A DNA stretch of 64,000 nt from an uncultured Bacilli bacterium (GTDB taxonomy: Bacteria > Bacillota_I > Bacilli_A > RF39 > UBA660), in the NCBI GenBank assembly GCA_947632355.1, contig CANROY010000001.1:2040-66039 (forward strand), in the 5' to 3' direction. This document shows positions 6,098 through 62,239 of this stretch, in pieces (position 1 is the stretch's first letter; each line of letters opens with the position of its first letter). Under the pieces are notes generated by a model that had not been told where the DNA came from, did not search any database, and worked only from the letters and a program-made list of their open reading frames with translations. The translations under genes and the position numbers were made by a program.

Positions 6098-6580
6098 ATG
6101 AATCAAAACAAATTAGAAACCATTTCAAATTTATTTGAAGGTAAAGAAATAAGAAGTATTTGGGATAGCGAAAAAGGAGACTATTACTTTAGTGTGGTAG
6201 ATGTAATATCCGTTTTAACAAATGCCAATATTCCTAGAAATTATTGGAGTGATTTAAAAAGAAAATTAGAAAAGGAAGGAAGTCAACTGCACGAAAATAT
6301 CGTGCAGTTGAAAATGAAAGCACAAGATGGAAAATTAAGAGGAACTGATACTTTAAACACTAAAGGAATATTTAGACTTATAGAATCAGTTCCAAGTCCT
6401 AAAGCAGAACCATTTAAATTATGGCTTGCTAATTTAGGTAGTGAGAGAGTAGATGAAGTCTTTGACCCAGAAATTGCTATTAATAGAGTCATTGACTATT
6501 TTAGAAAACGAGGATATAGCGATAAGTGGATTAAGACACATTTTCTTACCATCCTTCAAAAAGTAAAAGCAAATAGATAG
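6098..6580 (+). CDS. Bro-N domain / DinD-like DNA-damage-inducible protein
   Basis: N-terminal FEGKEIRSIWDSEKGDYYFSVVDVISVL resembles the Bro-N/DinD fold; RBS AGGAGG. Confidence 0.5.
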   Translation: MNQNKLETISNLFEGKEIRSIWDSEKGDYYFSVVDVISVLTNANIPRNYWSDLKRKLEKEGSQLHENIVQLKMKAQDGKLRGTDTLNTKGIFRLIESVPSPKAEPFKLWLANLGSERVDEVFDPEIAINRVIDYFRKRGYSDKWIKTHFLTILQKVKANR

Positions 6581-15353: not shown

Positions 15354-15388
15354 AAAATGATTCCACTGATAAGCAAAATCATTTTATT
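15354..15388. repeat. ~34-bp element (copy 2) at the 3' end of the collagen-like gene
   Basis: See 11685..11718. Confidence 0.6.
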
Positions 15389-16413
15389 TTTTGAATAAAA
15401 ATCGTGACGGCTTGACTTGCAAAAGAAGATTCCGTATTTAATTCATCAATGCTTGGACTTGTTACAATAATCGGATACTTTCCGGTATTTATAATTTCAA
15501 ACCATTCATTTGGTGTAGTTAAATTCACGTATCCTGTTGCAACAAGTAGAGTTGGTGTATTGGGATTTCCAATAACGGAATTGCCAACATAAATTGTTGG
15601 TTCTTCTACAATTCCTACTTTTTTAAGACCAACTGAAATAACATTATAACCAGGTTGGGCACTCACATTTACCGTTGTTTTCGCTTGTACTAAAATATCA
15701 ATACGATAAATCCCAGGATTATAAAAAGTTAAGGTACTATTACGGTCGCTAAAGTAGTAATTGTTATCGGTATCTAATGTTTCTATCGCAATAGGAATGG
15801 AATAACCAGGCTTTACTTCTGTTCCATTTGGTTCAACATCTTCACTTGTGGTAATAAACATAGCAGATGGGATAGAAAGAGGTCCCGGAATTCCTTGTAC
15901 TCCCTGTTCTCCTTTTGGTCCTTGTGCTCCTGTTTTTCCGGTGGGTCCGGTAGGTCCTTGTTTTCCTTCAGGACCCGTTGGTCCAATACTTCCTTGTGGT
16001 CCACGAATCAAACCAACATTTTGCCAAGTTCCTGTCTCCTCCGACCAAACATATAAATATTCTCCAACCAAATAAGAATTTCCTTCTTCTCCTTTGGGAT
16101 GATTTTTTTCAAGTTCTGAAAAAGTATCAAAGTAGCCTAGAATCGTAACACTAGTTCCATCTTTTCCACAAGGTCCCGTTGGACCCATACTACCTGTTGC
16201 TCCAGATTCTCCTTGAGGTCCCTGAGGTCCCATTTTTCCTTCCGGTCCGGTTGGACCCATACTACCTTCTTCTCCTCTTGGTCCTTGTGGTCCTTGTGGA
16301 CCCATAGGTCCCGTTGGCCCTGTAATCGAACGAATACTTGTATAAACAAGAGGTGTTTTTTGTCTTTCCCTCACCTCTTCTACTTTTCTTAAGGCTTTTT
16401 CATAAGGATTCAT
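15379..16413 (-). CDS. Collagen-like triple-helix repeat surface protein with C-terminal globular domain (BclA-like architecture)
   Basis: Two Gly-X-Y blocks ([19 protein letters not shown]...; [28 protein letters not shown]...) separated by a ~45-aa spacer; ~170-aa non-collagen C-terminal domain; RBS GAGGAGG. Confidence 0.85.
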
Positions 16414-16533: not shown

Positions 16534-16562
16534 TTGACAAATTCGTGTAAACCTGCTATAAT
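16534..16562 (+). promoter_or_regulatory. Consensus sigma-A promoter TTGACA-17-TATAAT
   Basis: Perfect -35 TTGACA (16534-16539), 17-bp spacer, perfect -10 TATAAT (16557-16562). Confidence 0.8.
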
Positions 16563-16568
16563 GTAGGC

Positions 16569-17057
16569 ATGTGGTGCATTATTCTAGTCACCAAAATAAT
16601 ATGAAGATAGGGCTAAAAATCTATCAATTGTGCGAAGGCACTTTATATATTCTGCTTTCTTCGCCCAGAGGAGGGTGGATATATAATTTAAGATTTAAGG
16701 AAAGTTATAATGGCATATAACCAACCTCCTTTTATCGATGCAAAGAAACGATTAAAGCACATGTCGTGCGTGGTAATGTGGGATATCTTTTGAAAACATT
16801 ACTGCAAAAGCGAATAAGTATTAGAATGGGTGTTTGGGAAAACCTCTAGAGTGTCAACATCACAAAGATTAAGGTACGGACTAAGTGGCAATCGAGTAAT
16901 TAAAATGGTGACATTTAATTATTTTCCATAATGAGAAATCACCTTAGGGTAACCGAAGGCGAGAAAATAGAGAAATTCAACTCGACCTAAGCCGTAAAAT
17001 TAATTTGTGAGAAACCACTTTTAAGTTGTATAGAAAAGTTCTTCGGAACTTTTTTTC
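16569..17057 (+). ncRNA. Candidate ~490-nt structured non-coding RNA (or long cis-leader) of unknown class
   Basis: Consensus promoter upstream; no ORF over 30 codons on either strand; locally GC-enriched (~38% vs ~20% for neighbouring intergenic DNA); ends in a clean UUCG-tetraloop terminator (17034..17057) 19 nt before the next gene. Confidence 0.5.
17034..17057 (+). terminator. Rho-independent terminator AAAAGTTC-TTCG-GAACTTTT followed by T-run
   Basis: 8-bp stem, UUCG loop, T7 tail. Confidence 0.8.
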
Positions 17058-17075
17058 TAATAAAGCGAGGTTACT

Positions 17076-17588
17076 ATGAAAAACAAATGGATTCTACAAG
17101 TCTTTCTTATTTCTTTTGTATTAGCAATGGTTTTTAGTGGATTATCCTCTTCTCTTTCTGATTTAAATATAATTCTATTAATTCTAGTTTTAGTTTTCGT
17201 TATTTCAATTGGAATTGTATTTGATATGATTGGGGTTGCCACACTAACAGCCAAAGAAGCACCTTTTCACGCTAGGAATTCTAAAAAAATAAAGGAAGCC
17301 TCTGCTTGTCTTTATCTAATTAAGAATAGTACGAAAGTTTCTAGTATATGTAATGACATAGTGGGAGATATTTGTGGTATCATTAGTGGTAGTTTAGGTG
17401 CTACCCTAACCCTATACTTAACTATGAAAACGAATATTCCAATTTTAATAGCAACGATTCTTGTGACTTCACTAATTTCTTCTTTAACTGTTGGAGGAAA
17501 AGCCTACTTCAAAACCATTGCCATGAAACAAAGTGATGCCATAGTGTTAATGGCTGGTAAAGTTGTCCATTTATTTAAAAGGAAATAA
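17076..17588 (+). CDS. Hypothetical integral membrane protein (4-5 TM)
   Basis: 170-aa hydrophobic ORF, RBS GAGGT; no family recognised. Confidence 0.6.
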   Translation: MKNKWILQVFLISFVLAMVFSGLSSSLSDLNIILLILVLVFVISIGIVFDMIGVATLTAKEAPFHARNSKKIKEASACLYLIKNSTKVSSICNDIVGDICGIISGSLGATLTLYLTMKTNIPILIATILVTSLISSLTVGGKAYFKTIAMKQSDAIVLMAGKVVHLFKRK

Positions 17589-19644: not shown

Positions 19645-19932
19645 ATGGCAAGTTCAACTAGTACTATAAATGTACAAGTAGATACAAAAACGAAAAAGGA
19701 AGCATCTAAAATCTTAAAAGATTTAGGTTTAAATATGAGTACTTTTATTAATATGGCATTAATACAAGTCGTAAAAAGAAATGACATTCCTTTTGAAGTA
19801 GAAAATCCAAAACCTAGTAAAGAACTTTTGGAGGCACTAAAAGAAGGTGAAGATATTCTAAATGGAAAAATTAAAACCAAAAAATATCATAGTGCTAAAG
19901 AGTTATTTGAAGATTTAGAAGATGAATCTTAA
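19645..19932 (+). CDS. RelB/DinJ-family antitoxin (orphan, no adjacent toxin)
   Basis: Paralogue of dinJ at 29516..29836 (STNTIISVQIDKKDKEQATKIL vs STSTINVQVDTKTKKEASKIL); RBS AAGGGGG. Confidence 0.65.
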   Translation: MASSTSTINVQVDTKTKKEASKILKDLGLNMSTFINMALIQVVKRNDIPFEVENPKPSKELLEALKEGEDILNGKIKTKKYHSAKELFEDLEDES

Positions 19933-20025: not shown

Positions 20026-20478
20026 ATGAAACAATGGATTAAAAATTTATTTTACTTATTTTTTCCTCTACTCATTGGAGGGATTGTTGGTTTTCTTATA
20101 AAAGACGCCATTGACTATACGTCTTTAGTAAGACCACCTCTTGCTCCACCAAAATTATTATTTCCAATTGCTTGGACCATCATTTATTTATTAATGGGTA
20201 TTTCCTACTATCTATTTAAAAAAGAGGATAGTGATGAAGTAACGAGTGTCATTTATTACTTACAACTATTTGTAAATGCCTTATGGAGCATTATCTTCTT
20301 CTTACTAAAATGGCGTTTTGTTGCAATTGTATGGATTCTACTTCTTGATTTACTAGTAATCTTACTCATCTACTTATTCAATCAAAGAAAAAAGATAAGT
20401 GCCCTTTTAAATATCCCTTATCTTTTATGGATACTCTTTGCAACTTATCTAACGATTGGTATTTTTATCTTAAACTAA
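20026..20478 (+). CDS. tspO: TspO/MBR family tryptophan-rich sensory protein
   Basis: 5-TM 150-aa protein with PPLAPP..FPIAWTIIYLLMG motif. Confidence 0.8.
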   Translation: MKQWIKNLFYLFFPLLIGGIVGFLIKDAIDYTSLVRPPLAPPKLLFPIAWTIIYLLMGISYYLFKKEDSDEVTSVIYYLQLFVNALWSIIFFLLKWRFVAIVWILLLDLLVILLIYLFNQRKKISALLNIPYLLWILFATYLTIGIFILN

Positions 20479-29208: not shown

Positions 29209-29541
29209 TTAATTTTGTTTATGTAATATTTCACTATGACTACCTGTATTAATTAATAAGAGTATTATTTCATCATCTAAATACTTGTATATTAGTAACC
29301 AATCAGGTTCTATATGGCAATCTCGACAATCTTTAAATCGTTTATCATTATATAAAGAATGGTCTTTGTATTTTGCATCAAGCAATTCTTTATTCGCTAA
29401 TTTTTCAATAACTAGTTTTAATTTATTTATATCTTTCCCCTGTTTCAATATTTTTTTATAATTCTTTTTAAAATCATTTGAATACTTAATTTTATATTTT
29501 GTTTTTAAATCAAAATTAGTCTTCACTATCCAAAGCCTCAA
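29209..29541 (-). CDS. yafQ: Type II toxin YafQ/RelE family (start possibly GTG ~29526)
   Basis: KIKYSNDFKKNYKKILKQGKDINKL..YKDHSL...CRDCHIEPDWLLIYK matches YafQ motifs. Confidence 0.8.
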   Translation of the reverse strand: MRLWIVKTNFDLKTKYKIKYSNDFKKNYKKILKQGKDINKLKLVIEKLANKELLDAKYKDHSLYNDKRFKDCRDCHIEPDWLLIYKYLDDEIILLLINTGSHSEILHKQN

Positions 29542-29836
29542 ATAATTCTTTTATAGTATTATAGCTTTCATATTTTTCAGGGTGTTTTTCCATATTTTTA
29601 AGTTCTTTTGCCATAGCATCTAGTTCTTTTTTTGAAAAATATTTAGAAATATTATTTTCTTCTGGTGAAAGTGCAATTTCAAATGGAATACGCTTTTTCA
29701 TAATAACTTGTTTGATTGTCATATTTATTAATCCACTTAAAGAAACACCCAACTTTTGTAAGATTTTTGTGGCTTGTTCTTTATCTTTTTTATCAATTTG
29801 AACACTAATTATAGTATTAGTACTTGCCATAAACAT
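29516..29836 (-). CDS. dinJ: Type II antitoxin DinJ/RelB family
   Basis: Upstream of and overlapping the yafQ-like toxin; DinJ-like N-terminus TNTIISVQIDKKDKEQATKILQKLGVSLS. Confidence 0.8.
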   Translation of the reverse strand: MFMASTNTIISVQIDKKDKEQATKILQKLGVSLSGLINMTIKQVIMKKRIPFEIALSPEENNISKYFSKKELDAMAKELKNMEKHPEKYESYNTIKELFEALDSED

Positions 29837-33738: not shown

Positions 33739-34614
33739 TTATGACTTTTTACTTTCTATTTTTTCTAACAATGACTCTTTTACAATTTCATCTTCTAATA
33801 AATTGATAGAAAATGTTTTTTCTCCAATATGATTTAAAGAAGTTCCACAATGGTAGATAATTTCTTTATCTAATATAAAATAACGGTCATGGAATGTATT
33901 ATCATAAATTACTTTTAGATTATGATATTGTCGATTATACTTTTCTATATCAAGTTCGTGTAATAAACTGCTTTCTTTTACAATTAACGTTACTTCTATA
34001 TTTAATTCTTTTATATAATCTAATATAGTTTTATCGGCGTAACCATCTATGATTACAAGTTCTTTTTTAGCACTTTTAAAGATATCAACTACTTTTGAAT
34101 AAGCATCATAGATTTGACCATTAAAATAAATTTCATTCGTTTTTTTCTTTTCTTCAAATTTGGAAAATGACTCTTCTAATAAATTTATCCTTTTATTATC
34201 TTCTATGACTAAATTATTAATATATTTTTGTTCTATTAAATTTGTACTTATATATTTTTTCATTGCTACAAAGGCATCCATAATTCTGATACTGACTTCG
34301 GTTGCAATTTTTGATTTTAATATTGTAGCAAGCATAGCAACGCCTTGTTCAGTAAAAACTCTACTATTATATCTTCTACCACCATATTGTTTTAAACTTG
34401 AGGTCGCAATTTACGACCTCAAGTTTTCTTCTTCTATATTATTTAAAATCCAAGAAAATCTTTCAGGAAATTTCTCAATATTTCTATATACTGCTTCATT
34501 AATTCTCTTGGTTTCAACTTGATAAAGCCTTGCTAAATCACTATCGAGCATTACTTGCTTTCCCCTTATTTCATAAATTAAATTTTCTACTTTTTCTTTT
34601 GTTATTTCGTTCAT
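33739..34614 (-). pseudogene. ORF6N-domain (KilA-N-like antirepressor family) gene inactivated by a CAA-to-TAA nonsense mutation at 34411-34413
   Basis: N-terminal IYEIRGKQVMLDSDLARLYQVETKRINEAVYRNIEKFPERF (ORF6N). Same frame continues past the stop (NLRS*IATSSLKQYGGRRYNSRVFTEQGVAMLATIL...) into ORF 33739..34335. Confidence 0.7.
34394..34426. repeat. Palindromic element, family A, inside the ORF6N gene (CTTGAGGTCG-caattta-CGACCTCAAG); encodes NLRS*IATSS
   Basis: 10-bp perfect arms. The C-to-T change that creates the stop is also the only mismatch to a full 13+1+13 palindrome. Confidence 0.75.
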
Positions 34615-59984: not shown

Positions 59985-60341
59985 TCAATCTTGATACCCT
60001 TTGGTTTTATAATTTGCACATTTGATATACCCTTTATAATCATATACAGTACCTTTTTTGAGAACAGTAGCATATCCTTCACAAACTTCATCATTCACTT
60101 CTAAAGAATCTAAATACCCATTGTCAATTAAAGTAGATGCCTTTGTTTTTACTATTTCATTTTGTTCAGGATACAAAAATTTTTCATCCACATAGCGATC
60201 TTCCGCTACTACCAATTTACTTTCTAACTCTTTATAAACTTGTGTTTTCTTTTTATACAACAATCCAAAAATAGTTAAAAGTATAAATAAACCAACCACA
60301 AGCAGTCCCCAAATGACATACATTCTCTTCATTTTATTCAT
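59985..60341 (-). CDS. Small membrane-anchored Cys-containing protein (paralogue 3 of cassette); start ambiguous (60341/60347)
   Basis: N-terminal TM; C-terminal module VCEGYATVLKKGTVYDYKGYIKCANYKT shared with 60334..60783. Confidence 0.6.
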   Translation of the reverse strand: MNKMKRMYVIWGLLVVGLFILLTIFGLLYKKKTQVYKELESKLVVAEDRYVDEKFLYPEQNEIVKTKASTLIDNGYLDSLEVNDEVCEGYATVLKKGTVYDYKGYIKCANYKTKGYQD

Positions 60342-60783
60342 TTTCACCTATTCTCCAATTTTGAAATTCATTTGTTTTATAATTCGTACATTTTATATAG
60401 GCTTCTATTTCATAATCTTGATTTTCTTTTTTATAAACTAAAGCATAACCATCGCAAGAATCTTTATCACTTGTTATTAAATCACTATCTTCTAACAAAT
60501 GAGTATAAATTAAATTACTTGTTGGAATGGTTACAGTACCACTAATGCGATCATCATAATATTTTTGCATATAGGTAAGAGTTGCTTCACGTATTTTATT
60601 TTCAATAGAGGTATATGTAATATTTTCTTTTATACTTTCATTATTTGTTTGTGTAGAAGGTTTTATTGTATTTTCCCTTTTAAATTGAAAAGCATAAAAA
60701 ACAACAAAGAAAAGTGCGATTATTAAAATTGCACTAAAGATAATCATTTCACTTAAGCCCCAACCATTATTATTTAATTTCAT
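60334..60783 (-). CDS. Small membrane-anchored Cys-containing protein with prepilin-like N-terminus (MKLNNNG/WGLSE..., E at +5)
   Basis: RBS GGTGA; class-III-signal-like N-terminus; C-terminal SCDGYALVYKKENQDYEIEAYIKCTNYKT module with a Cys pair. Confidence 0.6.
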   Translation of the reverse strand: MKLNNNGWGLSEMIIFSAILIIALFFVVFYAFQFKRENTIKPSTQTNNESIKENITYTSIENKIREATLTYMQKYYDDRISGTVTIPTSNLIYTHLLEDSDLITSDKDSCDGYALVYKKENQDYEIEAYIKCTNYKTNEFQNWRIGENE

Positions 60784-60836
60784 TTAAATCACCACTAGTA
60801 CTTTATTATATACTATGATTTTAGAAGAAGCAAATA

Positions 60837-61100
60837 TTAATCACATTGTCTTTCTTGAATAAAGAATGGACCAAATTCCGTTGCTTTTAAGCATTCACGA
60901 TTATAAGTGATTGTTTTATAGCCAAAGCCATTACAAATAGTATTAGAGCCATCTGCATAATCTTTAACTTGTTCTGATAAACAATAAAGAGGTTTATCAC
61001 CATTTTTAACTCTAAAATAATCTACAAATACCATTATAATCCATAATAAAATTAATAATAAAACCACAACTTTTAAAATCGTTATTATAACTTTCTTCAT
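60837..61100 (-). CDS. Small membrane-anchored 4-Cys protein (paralogue 1 of cassette); start ATG 61100 (track's GTG 61109 lies in the RBS)
   Basis: RBS AGGTGA 6 nt before ATG; N-terminal TM; CLSEQ...ICNGFGYKTITYNRECLKA...QCD. Confidence 0.6.
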   Translation of the reverse strand: MKKVIITILKVVVLLLILLWIIMVFVDYFRVKNGDKPLYCLSEQVKDYADGSNTICNGFGYKTITYNRECLKATEFGPFFIQERQCD

Positions 61101-61117
61101 ATTCTTCACCTATTGTA

Positions 61118-61194: not shown

Positions 61195-61566
61195 TTAAGC
61201 AAGTTCGATTTCTGCTCCAGCTTCTTCAAGTTGTGCTTTAATTTGATCTGCTTCATCAGCAGGAATGTTTTCTTTAACGTTTCCACCGTTATCAGCTAAA
61301 GCTTTAGCTTCAACAAGTCCAAGTCCAGTAATATCTTTTAATAATTTAATAACTTGGATTTTGTTTCCACCAGCACTCTTTAATACAACAGTTTTTGTAC
61401 TAGAACCAGCGTCTTCAACTGCTCCAGCAGCAGGTGCAGCAGCAACTGCTACAGCCGTAGGATCAATTCCTAATTCCTCTTTCATTCCATCAACTAGTTC
61501 TTTTACTTCAAGAATAGTCATTTCTTTTAAAGCACTTATAAATTCATCTTTTGTTAATTTTGCCAT
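61195..61566 (-). CDS. rplL: 50S ribosomal protein L7/L12
   Basis: Sequence and synteny. Confidence 0.95.
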   Translation of the reverse strand: MAKLTKDEFISALKEMTILEVKELVDGMKEELGIDPTAVAVAAAPAAGAVEDAGSSTKTVVLKSAGGNKIQVIKLLKDITGLGLVEAKALADNGGNVKENIPADEADQIKAQLEEAGAEIELA

Positions 61567-61581: not shown

Positions 61582-62079
61582 TTAATTATTTTTTTCTAAT
61601 TGTTCAGCATATAGGTTTAAACCAATTGCTAAATCTCTAACATATTGCATCATACCACCAGCAAGCATCGTAAGTAATCCGTCTCTTGATGGGATATTTG
61701 CATATTCACGAATCGTATTAATATCAGCAACATCACCACTAATAATACCAACTCGTATATCAAGTAACTCATTTTCTTTTGCAAAATCTGAGATAACCTT
61801 GATTGGTTCTAGTAAGTCTTTACCAAATAGTATGGCATTTGGACCTTCTAGAAATCCTTCTAAATTAAGATTTAAATCATCTAATGCTCTTTTAAGCAAA
61901 GTATTTTTATACACTTTAACTTCTGCATTAGCATCTCTTAATTTATTTCTTAAACTACTTAAATCAGAAACTGTTAAACCTTGATATTGGAATAAAATAA
62001 CAGATTCACTATTTTTAATTTTATCCGTAATTTCAGCAACAATTTCTTTTTTTTCATTAAGAACTTTTTGACTTGCCAT
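61582..62079 (-). CDS. rplJ: 50S ribosomal protein L10
   Basis: Sequence and synteny. Confidence 0.95.
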   Translation of the reverse strand: MASQKVLNEKKEIVAEITDKIKNSESVILFQYQGLTVSDLSSLRNKLRDANAEVKVYKNTLLKRALDDLNLNLEGFLEGPNAILFGKDLLEPIKVISDFAKENELLDIRVGIISGDVADINTIREYANIPSRDGLLTMLAGGMMQYVRDLAIGLNLYAEQLEKNN

Positions 62080-62239
62080 ATTTCCTCCTTTTATATTTTT
62101 GAAATAGAAAAGCTCTTTTATGGGAAAAAGAGCTTATAAACATAAGTTACTTACTTTTCCCTCGGTAGGATTATTAAGATTACTCCCCTACTGTCTTTGG
62201 TAATCGGCTTTTCTATTACGTATTATATTAAATAATCCC
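62080..62239 (-). promoter_or_regulatory. rplJ 5' leader (expected L10(L12)4 autoregulatory leader region)
   Basis: 160-nt GC-enriched untranslated region between rplA and rplJ, as in other Firmicutes; structure not verified. Confidence 0.4.

What the first reader, a model, noticed from the sequence alone, without database searches (positions are those of the whole stretch)
16534..17075. Candidate ~490-nt structured RNA between the collagen-like gene and a small membrane-protein gene
- A perfect TTGACA-17-TATAAT promoter is followed by ~490 nt with no ORF over 30 codons on either strand.
- GC content there is ~38%, against ~20% for neighbouring intergenic DNA and ~27% for CDS.
- It ends in a textbook UUCG-tetraloop terminator (AAAAGTTC-TTCG-GAACTTTT plus T7) 19 nt before the next RBS.
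- This is either a large independent ncRNA or an unusually long cis-regulatory leader (riboswitch or attenuator) for the downstream membrane protein 17076..17588.
- I could not match RNase P, tmRNA, SRP, 6S, T-box, or any glycine/SAM/lysine/cobalamin riboswitch cores.
- Partial resemblances only: ACCGAAGGCGAG and AGGGTGGAT.
- Size and context are reminiscent of the large ornate RNAs of Firmicutes (ROOL, GOLLD, OLE, raiA-motif classes), but that is unverified.
Basis: partly seen in the sequence, partly recalled or inferred. Interest (0 to 1): 0.7.

Follow-up and report, generated by a model that had tools for sequence, protein, structure and literature searches.

The report
Short-form OLE RNA with oapA gene

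Summary
A perfect TG-extended TTGACA-17-TATAAT promoter (16534-16562) is followed by about 490 nt of non-coding sequence that is more GC-rich than its flanks. It ends in a UUCG-capped hairpin plus a run of seven T (17034-17056).

Rfam identifies 16555-17034 as OLE RNA (RF01071; 233.5 bits against a gathering score of 50; E 1.2e-64). It matches the whole model, but in 480 nt instead of 616.

The missing parts are P7, P8, the distal P9 arch and P11. This matches "variant 2" OLE RNA of Fernando & Breaker 2024, which is common in reduced-genome gut Bacilli (RF39).

The downstream 170-aa membrane protein (17076-17588) is OapA:
- OLE lies directly upstream of its homologue in all 20 related loci scanned with Rfam, including a full-length OLE in Aeribacillus.
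- Its predicted fold is closest to CNNM/CorB transmembrane domains.

Twenty-nine species-level short-form OLEs give strong covariation. Of 124 pairs, 70 show compensatory changes, and 97.7% of cells are paired against about 40% in slid controls.

The promoter is conserved across the clade. The terminator is found only in the closest relatives.

This is a known RNA class and a published variant. Interest is low to moderate.

The parts
16534..16562 (+). Sigma-70-type promoter of ole: -35 TTGACA (16534-16539), 17-nt spacer with TG at 16554-16555 (extended -10), -10 TATAAT (16557-16562). The inferred start is about A16569, 2 nt before the conserved GUGGUGCA.
   Evidence: 12/12 match, TG present. 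A near-consensus TTGACA-17-TATAAT sits 8-10 nt upstream of GUGGUGCA/AUGGAGCA in nearly all 29 short-form loci. The start site is inferred from spacing, not mapped.
16571..17018 (+). OLE RNA structured core, short form of 448 nt, from the 5' strand of P1 (GUGGU) to its 3' strand (ACCAC). The Rfam hit spans 16555-17034. A transcript ending at the terminator would be about 16569-17056, roughly 488 nt.
   Evidence: RF01071, 233.5 bits, E 1.2e-64, model 1-616. (alignment A2 of 29 species-level homologues; 124 pairs, 70 with compensatory changes, 97.7% of cells paired).
16580..16601 (+). 5' strands of long-range helices P2 (16580-16587, pairs with 16846-16853) and P3 (16589-16601, pairs with 16819-16832). 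P3 is the elongated helix proposed in the literature to span the membrane.
   Evidence: The P2 pair at columns 13/332 occurs as GC, UA, AU, CG and GU. P3 has 8 of 10 pairs with compensatory changes. Helix names are my assignment by position relative to published models (PMC12265935).
16606..16625 (+). P4 hairpin with loop L4 GCUAAAAA (16612-16619). In the cryo-EM dimer this A-rich loop forms the intermolecular A-A helix (bridge B1).
   Evidence: CUAAAAAU is invariant in all 29 sequences. Two stem pairs covary GC/AU. The bridge role comes from PMC12286853.
16629..16761 (+). Junction domain closed by a P4a-like helix (16629-16633 with 16757-16761). It contains:
- P5 (16643-16662 with 16668-16686; loop GCCCA 16663-16667);
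- P6 (16692-16700 with 16728-16736, and 16704-16709 with 16716-16721; loop AAUGGCAU);
- a 20-nt variable A-rich linker (16737-16756) where full-length OLE has P7 and P8.
   Evidence: model positions about 197-277 (blocks of 44 and 36 positions) are reduced to 8 and 9 nt; covariation in P4a-like, P5 and P6; columns 174-203 are poorly conserved and vary in length.
16764..16813 (+). P9, truncated (16764-16767 with 16810-16813; 16770-16779 with 16796-16805). The conserved GGGAU...UGAAA internal-loop motifs are closed directly by about 6 nt. The distal P9 arch, which carries the L9.3 kissing loop (dimer bridge B3), is absent.
   Evidence: 50 model positions replaced by 4 nt. (relatives L019, L054, L044 and L011 carry 20-45 nt inserts here, so the tip is variable). 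(7 of 10 distal pairs covary).
16836..16859 (+). P10 mini-hairpin (GGGAAAACC), the conserved CUAGAGUGU (3' strand of P2) and a short linker. The P11 hairpin of the Rfam model (positions 424-435) is missing.
   Evidence: alignment; the segment from CUAG to GGACUAAGUGG is 32 nt here against 44 nt in full-length L081.
16860..17010 (+). 3' domain:
- P12 (16860-16866 with 17004-17010);
- P12.1 (16875-16882 with 16990-16996);
- P12.2 (16887-16897 with 16980-16987);
- P13 (16899-16907 with 16912-16919; GUGA tetraloop 16908-16911 and a one-nucleotide bulge 2 bp below the loop), which is the OapB-binding architecture;
- P14 (16920-16927 with 16962-16969);
- P14.1 (16942-16948 with 16953-16959; GUAA loop).
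   Evidence: P13 has 7 of 8 and P14 has 8 of 8 pairs with compensatory changes. P13 carries a GNRA loop in 28 of 29 sequences. The OapB determinants (GNRA loop, bulge, P12.2) come from PMC7936274.
17034..17056 (+). Intrinsic-terminator-like hairpin AAAAGUUC-UUCG-GAACUUUU followed by UUU (seven U in a row). It is the likely 3' end of most ole transcripts. Read-through would be needed to express oapA.
   Evidence: Sequence and fold. The identical element is present only in the closest relatives L005, L006 and L007, and absent in most other short-form loci. It was not called by the terminator scan because it has only 2 G-C pairs.
17076..17588 (+). oapA: a 170-aa all-helical membrane protein, the OLE-associated protein A homologue. 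RBS GAGG at 17067-17070.
   Evidence: -: 2195 homologues, some carrying PF01595 (CNNM/DUF21).
- OLE lies directly upstream of the homologue in all 20 loci scanned with Rfam and in nearly all 80 by nhmmer, including Aeribacillus pallidus with a full-length OLE.
- model pLDDT 82.8. The top PDB fold hits are MtCorB (7m1t) and the CorC transmembrane domain (7cff).

Best explanation
This locus is an ole-oapA module. It encodes a reduced-size OLE (ornate, large, extremophilic) RNA and its membrane-protein partner OapA, in an uncultured low-GC gut member of the Bacilli.

**Shown here**
- The RNA matches the OLE covariance model end to end and keeps the conserved sequence blocks.
- It folds into the OLE helices P1-P6, proximal P9, P10 and P12-P14.1, with abundant compensatory changes across 29 related species.
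- It lacks P7, P8, the P9 arch and P11, which corresponds to the published 'variant 2' architecture.
- It has its own conserved strong promoter, placed so that transcription starts at the first nucleotides of P1.
- oapA follows 57 nt after P1 closes, with no promoter-like site of its own.

**Inferred from work on Halalkalibacterium halodurans and Clostridium acetobutylicum**
- The RNA is a stable trans-acting ncRNA that binds OapA and is held at the membrane as part of a ribonucleoprotein.
- That complex helps cells cope with stresses such as excess Mg2+, cold, alcohols and poor carbon sources.

**Inferred from the sequence**
- In this subclade a weak UUCG-capped terminator between ole and oapA stops most transcripts after the RNA.
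- A fraction reads through into oapA, which would give more RNA than oapA mRNA.
- The RNA keeps the L4 A-rich loop and the L5 and L6 loops used for dimer contacts, and the P13 GNRA-plus-bulge site used by OapB.
- It has lost L7 and the L9.3 kissing loop, so any dimer would rest on fewer bridges.
For: - **Rfam.** RF01071 at 233.5 bits against a gathering score of 50, E 1.2e-64, model 1-616.
- **Linkage to oapA.** All 20 oapA-homologue loci scanned carry OLE immediately upstream. Short forms are 464-509 nt at 211-260 bits. Full-length examples are 597-667 nt at 393-534 bits. nhmmer extends this to nearly all 80 loci.
- **Covariation on 29 species-level short forms.** Of 124 pairs, 70 have changes on both sides. 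97.7% of cells are paired against 37-44% when partners are slid. The covariation score is 0.407 against 0.08-0.10. None of 500 shuffles reach the observed values.
- **Promoter.** 12/12 match with extended -10, conserved in position across the clade.
- **No other plus-strand promoter-like site** between 16563 and 17076.
- **OapA.** 2195 homologues, some PF01595. The predicted fold is closest to CNNM/CorB and CorC transmembrane domains.
- **Literature.** Variant 2 lacks P7 and P8 and is common in RF39 (PMC11332333). oapA is the commonest immediate downstream neighbour of ole (PMC12265935). OapB site. Dimer bridges L4, L5/L6/L7 and L9.3.
Against: - There is no expression, end-mapping or localisation data for this organism. 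The start site, the termination and the read-through are all inferred.
- The terminator hairpin is weak (2 G-C pairs; z = -0.47 in context). It occurs only in the four closest sequences, with no covariation, so its function is uncertain.
- The window is not embedded in the usual ole gene neighbourhood (isoprenoid, DNA repair, nusB/folD and so on). Its neighbours are a collagen-like gene and a PGA_cap gene, syntenic only in the nearest relatives.
- No OapB- or OapC-like gene was found among the plausible small ORFs of the 64-kb window. This says little about the whole genome.
- The J4a/5 'AUGA' expected for the OapC k-turn reads GGC/AGC in this subclade.
- The biochemical function of OLE itself remains unknown in the literature.
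Confidence: 0.95

Rival explanations
1. The roughly 490-nt element is a cis-regulatory leader (riboswitch or attenuator). It would control oapA through conditional termination at the UUCG hairpin, rather than act as a functional RNA in its own right.
For: - oapA has no promoter-like site of its own and starts 19 nt after the T-run.
- ole and oapA are contiguous in nearly all relatives, so the RNA is physically the 5' part of the oapA transcription unit.
Against: - The element is OLE RNA by covariance model. OLE is documented as an abundant, stable, membrane-localised RNP component that binds OapA protein.
- The terminator is absent in most short-form relatives, while the RNA is conserved throughout. 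The conserved structure therefore cannot exist to control that terminator.
- In L013 ole lies 2 kb from oapA with its own terminator. In L012 a separate promoter precedes oapA.
Confidence: 0.04
2. It is a decaying, non-functional OLE remnant in a reduced genome. The loss of P7, P8, the P9 arch and P11 would be erosion on the way to loss of the gene.
For: - The RNA is 480 nt against a 616-position model and scores less than half of full-length examples.
- The hosts appear to be reduced-genome gut Bacilli, which the literature says largely lack OapB and OapC.
Against: - The same reduced architecture is kept in 29 species-level genomes whose OapA proteins are only 42-78% identical to this one.
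- 70 of 124 pairs show compensatory changes, 97.7% of cells are paired, and about 180 columns are invariant.
- A conserved consensus promoter and an intact adjacent oapA are retained.
- This pattern indicates purifying selection on a smaller but functional RNA.
Confidence: 0.03
3. The region is a degraded protein-coding gene or encodes small peptides, for example the 49-aa GTG ORF at 16571-16720.
For: Mechanical ORFs of 49, 33 and 30 aa exist in the region.
Against: - Substitutions among relatives follow base-pair covariation rather than codon periodicity.
- Insertions and deletions of non-multiples of 3 are frequent in the alignment.
- There is a strong covariance-model match to an RNA family.
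Confidence: 0.01

Closest known systems
OLE RNA 'variant 2' (Fernando & Breaker 2024, mSphere, PMC11332333), common in the RF39 clade of gut Bacilli
   Same: - It lacks P7 and P8 and keeps most of the highly conserved OLE nucleotides.
- The hosts are uncultured low-GC gut Bacilli. The nearest loci are MAGs labelled Bacilli, Ca. Coprovivens, Mycoplasma sp. CAG:472 and 'Tenericutes'.
- oapA is adjacent.
   Different: - The paper defines the class by bit-score bands with its own model and describes only the P7/P8 loss.
- Here I also see loss of the distal P9 arch and of P11, retention of the P13 OapB-type site in 28 of 29 sequences, a clade-wide dedicated promoter, and a subclade-specific terminator before oapA.
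- I could not check GTDB placement in RF39 directly.
Full-length OLE RNA (Rfam RF01071; Halalkalibacterium halodurans, Clostridium acetobutylicum, Aeribacillus)
   Same: - The same conserved blocks are present: GUGGUGCA..UAUUCUAGUCA, CUAAAAAU, GCCCA, AAUGGCAU, UGCAAAAG, GGAAAAC, CGGACUAAGUGG and GACCUAAGCC.
- The helices P1-P6, proximal P9, P10 and P12-P14.1 are the same.
- oapA lies immediately downstream.
   Different: - It is about 130 nt shorter, with no P7, P8, P9.1-9.3 or P11. Two published dimer contacts (L7 in bridge B2, L9.3 in bridge B3) therefore have no counterpart.
- It is transcribed from its own promoter rather than from inside a long operon of housekeeping genes.
- The J4a/5 sequence expected for the OapC k-turn is altered.
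OLE RNA 'variant 1' (TANB77 clade)
   Same: A shortened OLE in reduced-genome gut bacteria.
   Different: Variant 1 keeps shortened P7, P8 and P9 and often lacks the OapB site at the P13 tip. The window RNA has no P7 or P8 at all and keeps the P13 GNRA loop and bulge.
OapA, and CNNM/MpfA/CorB-CorC Mg2+ transporters (DUF21, PF01595)
   Same: - The 170-aa downstream protein is all-helical.
- Its best structural matches are the transmembrane domains of MtCorB (7m1t) and CorC (7cff).
- Some close homologues carry PF01595.
   Different: - It has no CBS-pair or CorC/HlyC domains. It consists only of the membrane domain, as described for OapA.
- The window protein itself does not reach any Pfam or NCBIfam threshold.
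Other large ornate bacterial RNAs (ROOL, GOLLD, raiA motif)
   Same: Large, highly structured ncRNAs of Bacillota with unknown biochemical function.
   Different: None of these families gives a match anywhere in the window at Rfam gathering thresholds.

Membership tests
OLE RNA (RF01071) | Match to the family covariance model above the curated gathering score | tested here: met
   233.5 bits against a gathering score of 50, E 1.2e-64, model positions 1-616, not truncated.
OLE RNA (RF01071) | Blocks of near-invariant nucleotides (about a quarter of positions) | tested here: met
   The cmscan alignment shows the conserved blocks. About 180 invariant columns occur among the 29 short-form sequences.
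OLE RNA (RF01071) | Ornate secondary structure supported by covariation | tested here: met
   124 pairs in 21 helices, 70 of them with compensatory changes. 97.7% of cells are paired against 37-44% in slid controls. None of 500 shuffles reach the observed values.
OLE RNA (RF01071) | oapA gene immediately downstream | tested here: met
   The 170-aa membrane protein starts 57 nt after P1 closes. OLE lies upstream of its homologues in 20 of 20 loci scanned with Rfam, including full-length OLE hosts.
OLE RNA (RF01071) | Length of about 600 nt, with P7, P8, the extended P9 and P11 | tested here: not met
   The Rfam hit is 480 nt and the core is 448 nt. Model blocks of 44, 36 and 50 positions are reduced to 8, 9 and 4 nt, and the hairpin at model positions 424-435 is absent. 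This places it in the published short variant and does not exclude it from the family.
OLE RNA (RF01071) | Host in Bacillota, typically an anaerobe or extremophile | tested here: met
   The nearest genomic loci are gut MAGs labelled Bacilli, Ca. Coprovivens (Bacillota; Bacilli), Mycoplasma sp. CAG:472 and similar. Its nearest OapA is 78% identical.
OLE RNA (RF01071) | Location within a cluster or operon of housekeeping genes (isoprenoid synthesis, DNA repair, nusB, folD and others) | tested here: not met
   The neighbours are a divergent collagen-like gene, then PGA_cap, NUDIX and RelB. ole has a dedicated promoter. Synteny beyond ole-oapA holds only in L005 and L006.
OLE RNA (RF01071) | OapB-binding site: P13 with a GNRA tetraloop and a one-nucleotide bulge, next to P12.2 | tested here: met
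   P13 at 16899-16919 has a GUGA loop and a bulged A 2 bp below the loop. A GNRA loop is present in 28 of 29 relatives. Whether an OapB protein exists in this genome was not testable.
OLE RNA (RF01071) | K-turn at J4a/5 that binds OapC (YbxF) | tested here: inconclusive
   The 'AUGA' in J4a/5 is present in about two thirds of short forms but reads GAAGGCAC or GAAAGCAC in the window and its nearest relatives. The partner strand (J6/7) falls in the variable linker. No L7Ae-family gene was found among the small ORFs of the window.
OLE RNA (RF01071) | Membrane localisation, RNP formation and stress phenotypes | not testable with these tools
   Known only from experiments in H. halodurans.
OLE 'variant 2' (Fernando & Breaker 2024) | Complete absence of P7 and P8, with other conserved nucleotides retained | tested here: met
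   A 20-nt variable A-rich linker (16737-16756) joins P6 to the closing helix.
OLE 'variant 2' (Fernando & Breaker 2024) | Infernal score of 235-310 bits with the authors' own model | not tested
   Their Stockholm model is not available here. The Rfam model gives 233.5 bits, which is not directly comparable.
OLE 'variant 2' (Fernando & Breaker 2024) | Host in the RF39 clade (GTDB) | not testable with these tools
   No GTDB taxonomy is available here. The record titles of relatives (Bacilli MAGs, Ca. Coprovivens, Mycoplasma sp. CAG:472, 'Tenericutes' UMGS) are consistent with RF39 from my own knowledge only.
OapA | Small multi-pass membrane protein related to the CNNM/MpfA (DUF21) transmembrane domain, encoded next to ole | tested here: met
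   The model is all-helical with pLDDT 82.8. The top three PDB fold hits are CNNM/CorB and the CorC transmembrane domain (prob 1.00, 1.00 and 0.75; TM-score relative to the query 0.42-0.59; E-values are only 7e-3 to 0.9). PF01595 is present in several homologues. It is adjacent to ole. The window protein itself has no Pfam or NCBIfam hit.

The most novel reading that the evidence does not exclude
The roughly 450-nt form may be a natural minimal OLE ribonucleoprotein, a self-contained two-gene ole-oapA cassette with its own promoter. Such an RNA would work without the P7/P8 junction arms, the P9 kissing-loop arch, P11 and possibly the OapC k-turn. Its quaternary arrangement would then differ from the three-bridge dimer seen by cryo-EM, resting on L4 and L5/L6 contacts only or existing as a monomer. 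In the window's subclade, a leaky terminator would set the RNA-to-OapA ratio. If so, the clade defines by natural deletion which parts of OLE are dispensable for its still-unknown core function.
Probability: 0.3. Interest if true: 0.45.

Novelty: already known. Interest (0 to 1): 0.22.

Why it matters
OLE is one of the largest and best-conserved bacterial RNAs whose biochemical function is still unknown. Recent work proposes that it spans the membrane as a dimer bound to OapA.

This locus adds nothing categorically new. The family model finds it, and the short architecture has been published. It is still a clean example of the smallest natural OLE form. The comparative set assembled here (29 species, strong covariation) shows what the short form keeps and what it drops:
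- **Kept:** P1-P6, proximal P9, P10, P12-P14.1, the L4, L5 and L6 loops, and the P13 GNRA-plus-bulge site.
- **Dropped:** P7, P8, the P9 arch with its kissing loop, and P11.

That is useful for designing minimal constructs for structural or functional work.

For genome annotation, 16555-17034 should be labelled ole (ncRNA), and 17076-17588 should be labelled oapA rather than hypothetical membrane protein.

Tried and rejected
- **Family libraries for the downstream protein.** Pfam and NCBIfam gave no hit. Identity came from homologue context and predicted fold instead.
- **Solved structures by sequence.** The PDB sequence search returned only chance matches to designed helical proteins.
- **OapC or OapB gene in the window.** The three small ORFs between rplL and rpsJ, where ybxF sits in Bacillus, have no Pfam hit. 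The other plausible small ORFs are ribosomal proteins, IF-1, RelB, YafQ, TspO, Bro-N and ORF6N. I found none, and 64 kb cannot speak for the genome.
- **Regex anchors for full-length OLEs.** This method of measuring inter-block distances failed for several of them. I relied on the cmscan alignment instead.
- **Block et al. 2011.** I wanted the OapA-binding palindromes, but the paper is not held. I make no claim about those sites beyond noting CUAG in P2 and ACAUGU next to the closing helix.
- **Terminator.** The consensus scan does not call it, and its folding energy is not better than shuffles. I keep it as 'terminator-like' only.
- **Rejected readings.** Riboswitch or attenuator leader, pseudogene, and decaying remnant (see the rival explanations).
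Full report

Yes, with small corrections.
- The promoter scan finds one perfect site in the region: TTGACA (16534-16539), a 17-nt spacer and TATAAT (16557-16562). It matches 12 of 12 positions and has TG upstream of the -10.
- The region does contain mechanical ORFs of 49 aa (16571-16720, GTG start), 33 aa and 30 aa. 'No ORF over 30 codons' is therefore not literally true, although none is coding (see section 4).
- GC content is 34.9% over 16534-17075 and 35.7% over the RNA core. The two flanking intergenic stretches are 23.3% and 18.1%, and the whole window is 29.5%.
- The hairpin AAAAGTTC-TTCG-GAACTTTT lies at 17034-17053, and the run of seven T ends at 17056. The following 19 nt reach the ATG at 17076, not the RBS (GAGG at 17067-17070).
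- The hairpin has only two G-C pairs. The consensus scan did not call it, and it is no more stable than shuffled sequence in its local context (z = -0.47).

**2. What is it?**

An Rfam 15 scan of the whole window at gathering thresholds returns two matches.
- The first is OLE RNA (RF01071) at 16555-17034 on the plus strand. It scores 233.5 bits against a gathering score of 50, with E = 1.2e-64. It covers model positions 1-616 without truncation, but in only 480 nt.
- The second is an unrelated L10 leader at 62097-62218.

The cmscan alignment shows the hallmark conserved blocks:
- GUGGUGCAUUAUUCUAGUCA
- GGCUAAAAAUC
- CGCCCAG
- AAUGGCAU
- CUGCAAAAGCG
- GGGAAAACC
- CUAGAGUGU
- ACGGACUAAGUGG
- GACCUAAGCCG
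- ACCAC

It also shows where sequence is missing:
- Model blocks of 44 and 36 positions (about 197-277) are reduced to 8 and 9 nt.
- A 50-position block inside the next long hairpin is reduced to 4 nt.
- The small hairpin at model positions 424-435 is absent.

**3. The downstream gene is oapA.**

- The 170-aa product of 17076-17588 has no Pfam or NCBIfam hit of its own. It has 2195 homologues in the protein collection, several of which carry PF01595 (CNNM/DUF21).
- A profile-guided scan of one genome per species returned 80 loci. The nearest are gut MAGs labelled uncultured Bacilli, at 70-78% identity. Next come Ca. Coprovivens, Mycoplasma sp. CAG:472 and 'Tenericutes' UMGS bins, then Clostridia, and Aeribacillus pallidus at 41%.
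- Rfam finds OLE immediately upstream of the homologue in all 20 loci I scanned. Short forms of 464-509 nt score 211-260 bits. Full-length forms of 597-667 nt score 393-534 bits.
- An nhmmer profile extends this linkage to nearly all 80 loci.
- An AlphaFold model of the protein (pLDDT 82.8, all-helical) is closest in the PDB to the archaeal CNNM MtCorB (7m1t) and to the CorC transmembrane domain (7cff). The literature says the same of OapA (PMC11332333; PMC12265935). The Foldseek E-values are weak (7e-3 and worse), so the fold evidence supports the assignment but does not decide it. The genomic linkage decides it.

**4. Structure and selection.**

- I aligned the core (5' GUGG to 3' CCAC/U) of 29 species-level short-form OLEs, which are 445-481 nt long. 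The window's core is 448 nt, at 16571-17018.
- RNAalifold predicts 124 pairs, and 70 of them have at least one compensatory double change.
- Counting pairs on that structure gives 97.7% of cells paired, against 37-44% when the 3' partners are slid by 1-3 columns. The covariation score is 0.407 against 0.08-0.10. None of 500 column shuffles reach the observed values on any measure.
- The structure was derived from this same alignment, which inflates 'cells paired' somewhat. The counts of double changes (70 pairs against 18-25) are not explained by that.
- The helices map onto the published OLE architecture. The names are my assignment by position; one search gives window coordinates. They are P1, P2, P3, P4 with its A-rich loop, a P4a-like closing helix, P5, P6, proximal P9, P10, P12, P12.1, P12.2, P13, P14 and P14.1.
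- This rules out a pseudogene or a small-peptide gene.

**5. Which OLE?**

- Fernando & Breaker (2024) divide OLE RNAs into three types. These are full-length, 'variant 1' (short P7, P8 and P9, often without the OapB site; TANB77 clade) and 'variant 2' (no P7 or P8; common in RF39).
- They note that these reduced-genome gut lineages largely lack OapB and OapC.
- The window RNA has a 20-nt, poorly conserved, A-rich linker (16737-16756) where P7 and P8 would be, so it fits variant 2.
- I could not apply their score bands because they used their own model. I also could not confirm GTDB placement of the host.

Beyond the published description:
- The distal P9 arch is gone. The conserved GGGAU and UGAAA motifs are separated by about 6 nt here, whereas some relatives carry 20-45-nt inserts at that point.
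- P11 is gone.
- P13 keeps a GUGA tetraloop and a one-nucleotide bulge two base pairs below the loop. This is the determinant of OapB binding defined by crystallography. 28 of the 29 sequences keep a GNRA loop there.
- Of the dimer bridges seen by cryo-EM (L4 A-A helix; L5/L6/L7; L9.3 kissing loop), the window keeps L4, L5 and L6 essentially invariant. It has no counterpart of L7 or L9.3.
- The J4a/5 'AUGA' that would supply the G-A of the OapC k-turn is present in about two thirds of short forms. It reads GGC or AGC in the window and its closest relatives. I leave the k-turn as inconclusive.

**6. Transcription unit (inference from sequence).**

- A near-consensus TTGACA-17-TATAAT, often TG-extended, lies 8-10 nt upstream of the first nucleotide of P1 in nearly every short-form locus.
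- The RNA therefore probably starts at its structural 5' end (about A16569) and needs no 5' processing. This differs from H. halodurans, where ole lies inside a long polycistronic transcript.
- In most relatives only 20-40 nt separate the 3' strand of P1 from the oapA RBS, with no terminator, so ole and oapA are co-transcribed.
- The window and its three nearest relatives (L005, L006, L007) share an identical UUCG-capped hairpin and T-run in that spacer.
- There is no plus-strand promoter-like site between 16563 and 17076, so oapA expression here would need read-through.
- I read this as a leaky terminator that favours RNA over oapA mRNA. This step is not shown.
- Architecture varies elsewhere. 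In L013 ole has its own terminator and lies 2 kb from oapA. In L012 there is a terminator followed by a fresh promoter.
- Only the ole-oapA linkage is conserved. The collagen-like and PGA_cap neighbours are syntenic only in L005 and L006.

**7. How it most likely works.**

- By homology with the experimentally studied systems, the RNA folds into the OLE architecture and binds OapA. It is held at the membrane as part of a ribonucleoprotein that helps the cell tolerate stresses such as excess Mg2+, cold, short-chain alcohols and poor carbon sources.
- OapA is related to CNNM/MpfA Mg2+ transporters.
- The biochemical activity of OLE itself is unknown in the literature, and nothing here changes that.
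- Confidence that this is an ole-oapA locus: about 0.95 or higher.
- Confidence in the terminator read-through idea: about 0.5.
- Confidence that the short form has a reduced set of protein and RNA contacts: moderate. The loss of the RNA elements is seen directly, but its consequences are not.

**8. Novelty and score.**

- The family is in Rfam, and the family model finds this copy far above threshold.
- The short architecture and its host range were published in 2024.
- The locus is at most an unannotated additional instance. The nearest species representative has an OapA that is 78% identical.
- The extra details noted here are incremental: loss of the P9 arch and P11, the retained OapB-type site, the clade-wide dedicated promoter and the subclade terminator.
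- Interest: 0.22.

Noticed in passing
window 62097-62218 (-): Ribosomal protein L10 leader (RF00557; 78.3 bits against a gathering score of 44), directly upstream of rplJ (61582-62079) and rplL (61195-61566). This is ordinary autoregulatory leader placement.
   Followed up: partly
window 59985-61109 (-): Three small ORFs (90, 149 and 120 aa) lie between rplL and rpsJ, where rpoB/rpoC and rpsL/rpsG usually sit. None has a Pfam hit. Each has an N-terminal hydrophobic helix. Two share a C-terminal motif, C(E/D)GYA.V.KK...Y...YIKC.NYKT, so they look like paralogous small membrane-anchored or secreted proteins.
   Followed up: partly
window 15379-16413 (-): A collagen-triple-helix repeat protein (PF01391) with GC of 39% in a 29.5% GC window, transcribed divergently from ole. 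A 57%-identical homologue sits in the same position only in the nearest relative, L006. Another homologue occurs in L079 at a different position.
   Followed up: partly
window 19645-19932 (+); 29209-29836 (-); 6098-6580 (+); 34411-34614 (-): Toxin-antitoxin and mobile-element-type genes: a RelB antitoxin, a RelB-YafQ pair, a Bro-N domain protein and an ORF6N domain protein. There is also a TspO/MBR membrane protein at 20026-20478.
   Followed up: no
L035:2534-2978: This short-form OLE ('Tenericutes' UMGS1021) has lost the tip of P13, including the GNRA loop (the OapB site). The other 28 short forms keep it.
   Followed up: no
L069:2334-2930: A MAG labelled 'uncultured Tenericutes' (UMGS1185) keeps a full-length 597-nt OLE (392.6 bits), although its OapA is no more distant from the window's than those of short-form hosts. 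The shortening is therefore not uniform across these reduced-genome Bacilli.
   Followed up: no
L013:528-999 and L012:484-947: In these relatives ole ends in a strong G-C-containing terminator. In L013 oapA lies 2 kb away. In L012 a new TTGACC-17-TATAAT promoter precedes oapA. The ole-oapA transcription unit has therefore been split more than once.
   Followed up: no
window 16634-16642 and alignment A2 columns 65-76: The J4a/5 segment reads GAAGGCAC in the window and its closest relatives. About two thirds of the short forms, and the full-length consensus, have (A/G)AUGA(C/U)AC there. The G-A step expected for the OapC k-turn is therefore altered in this subclade.
   Followed up: partly
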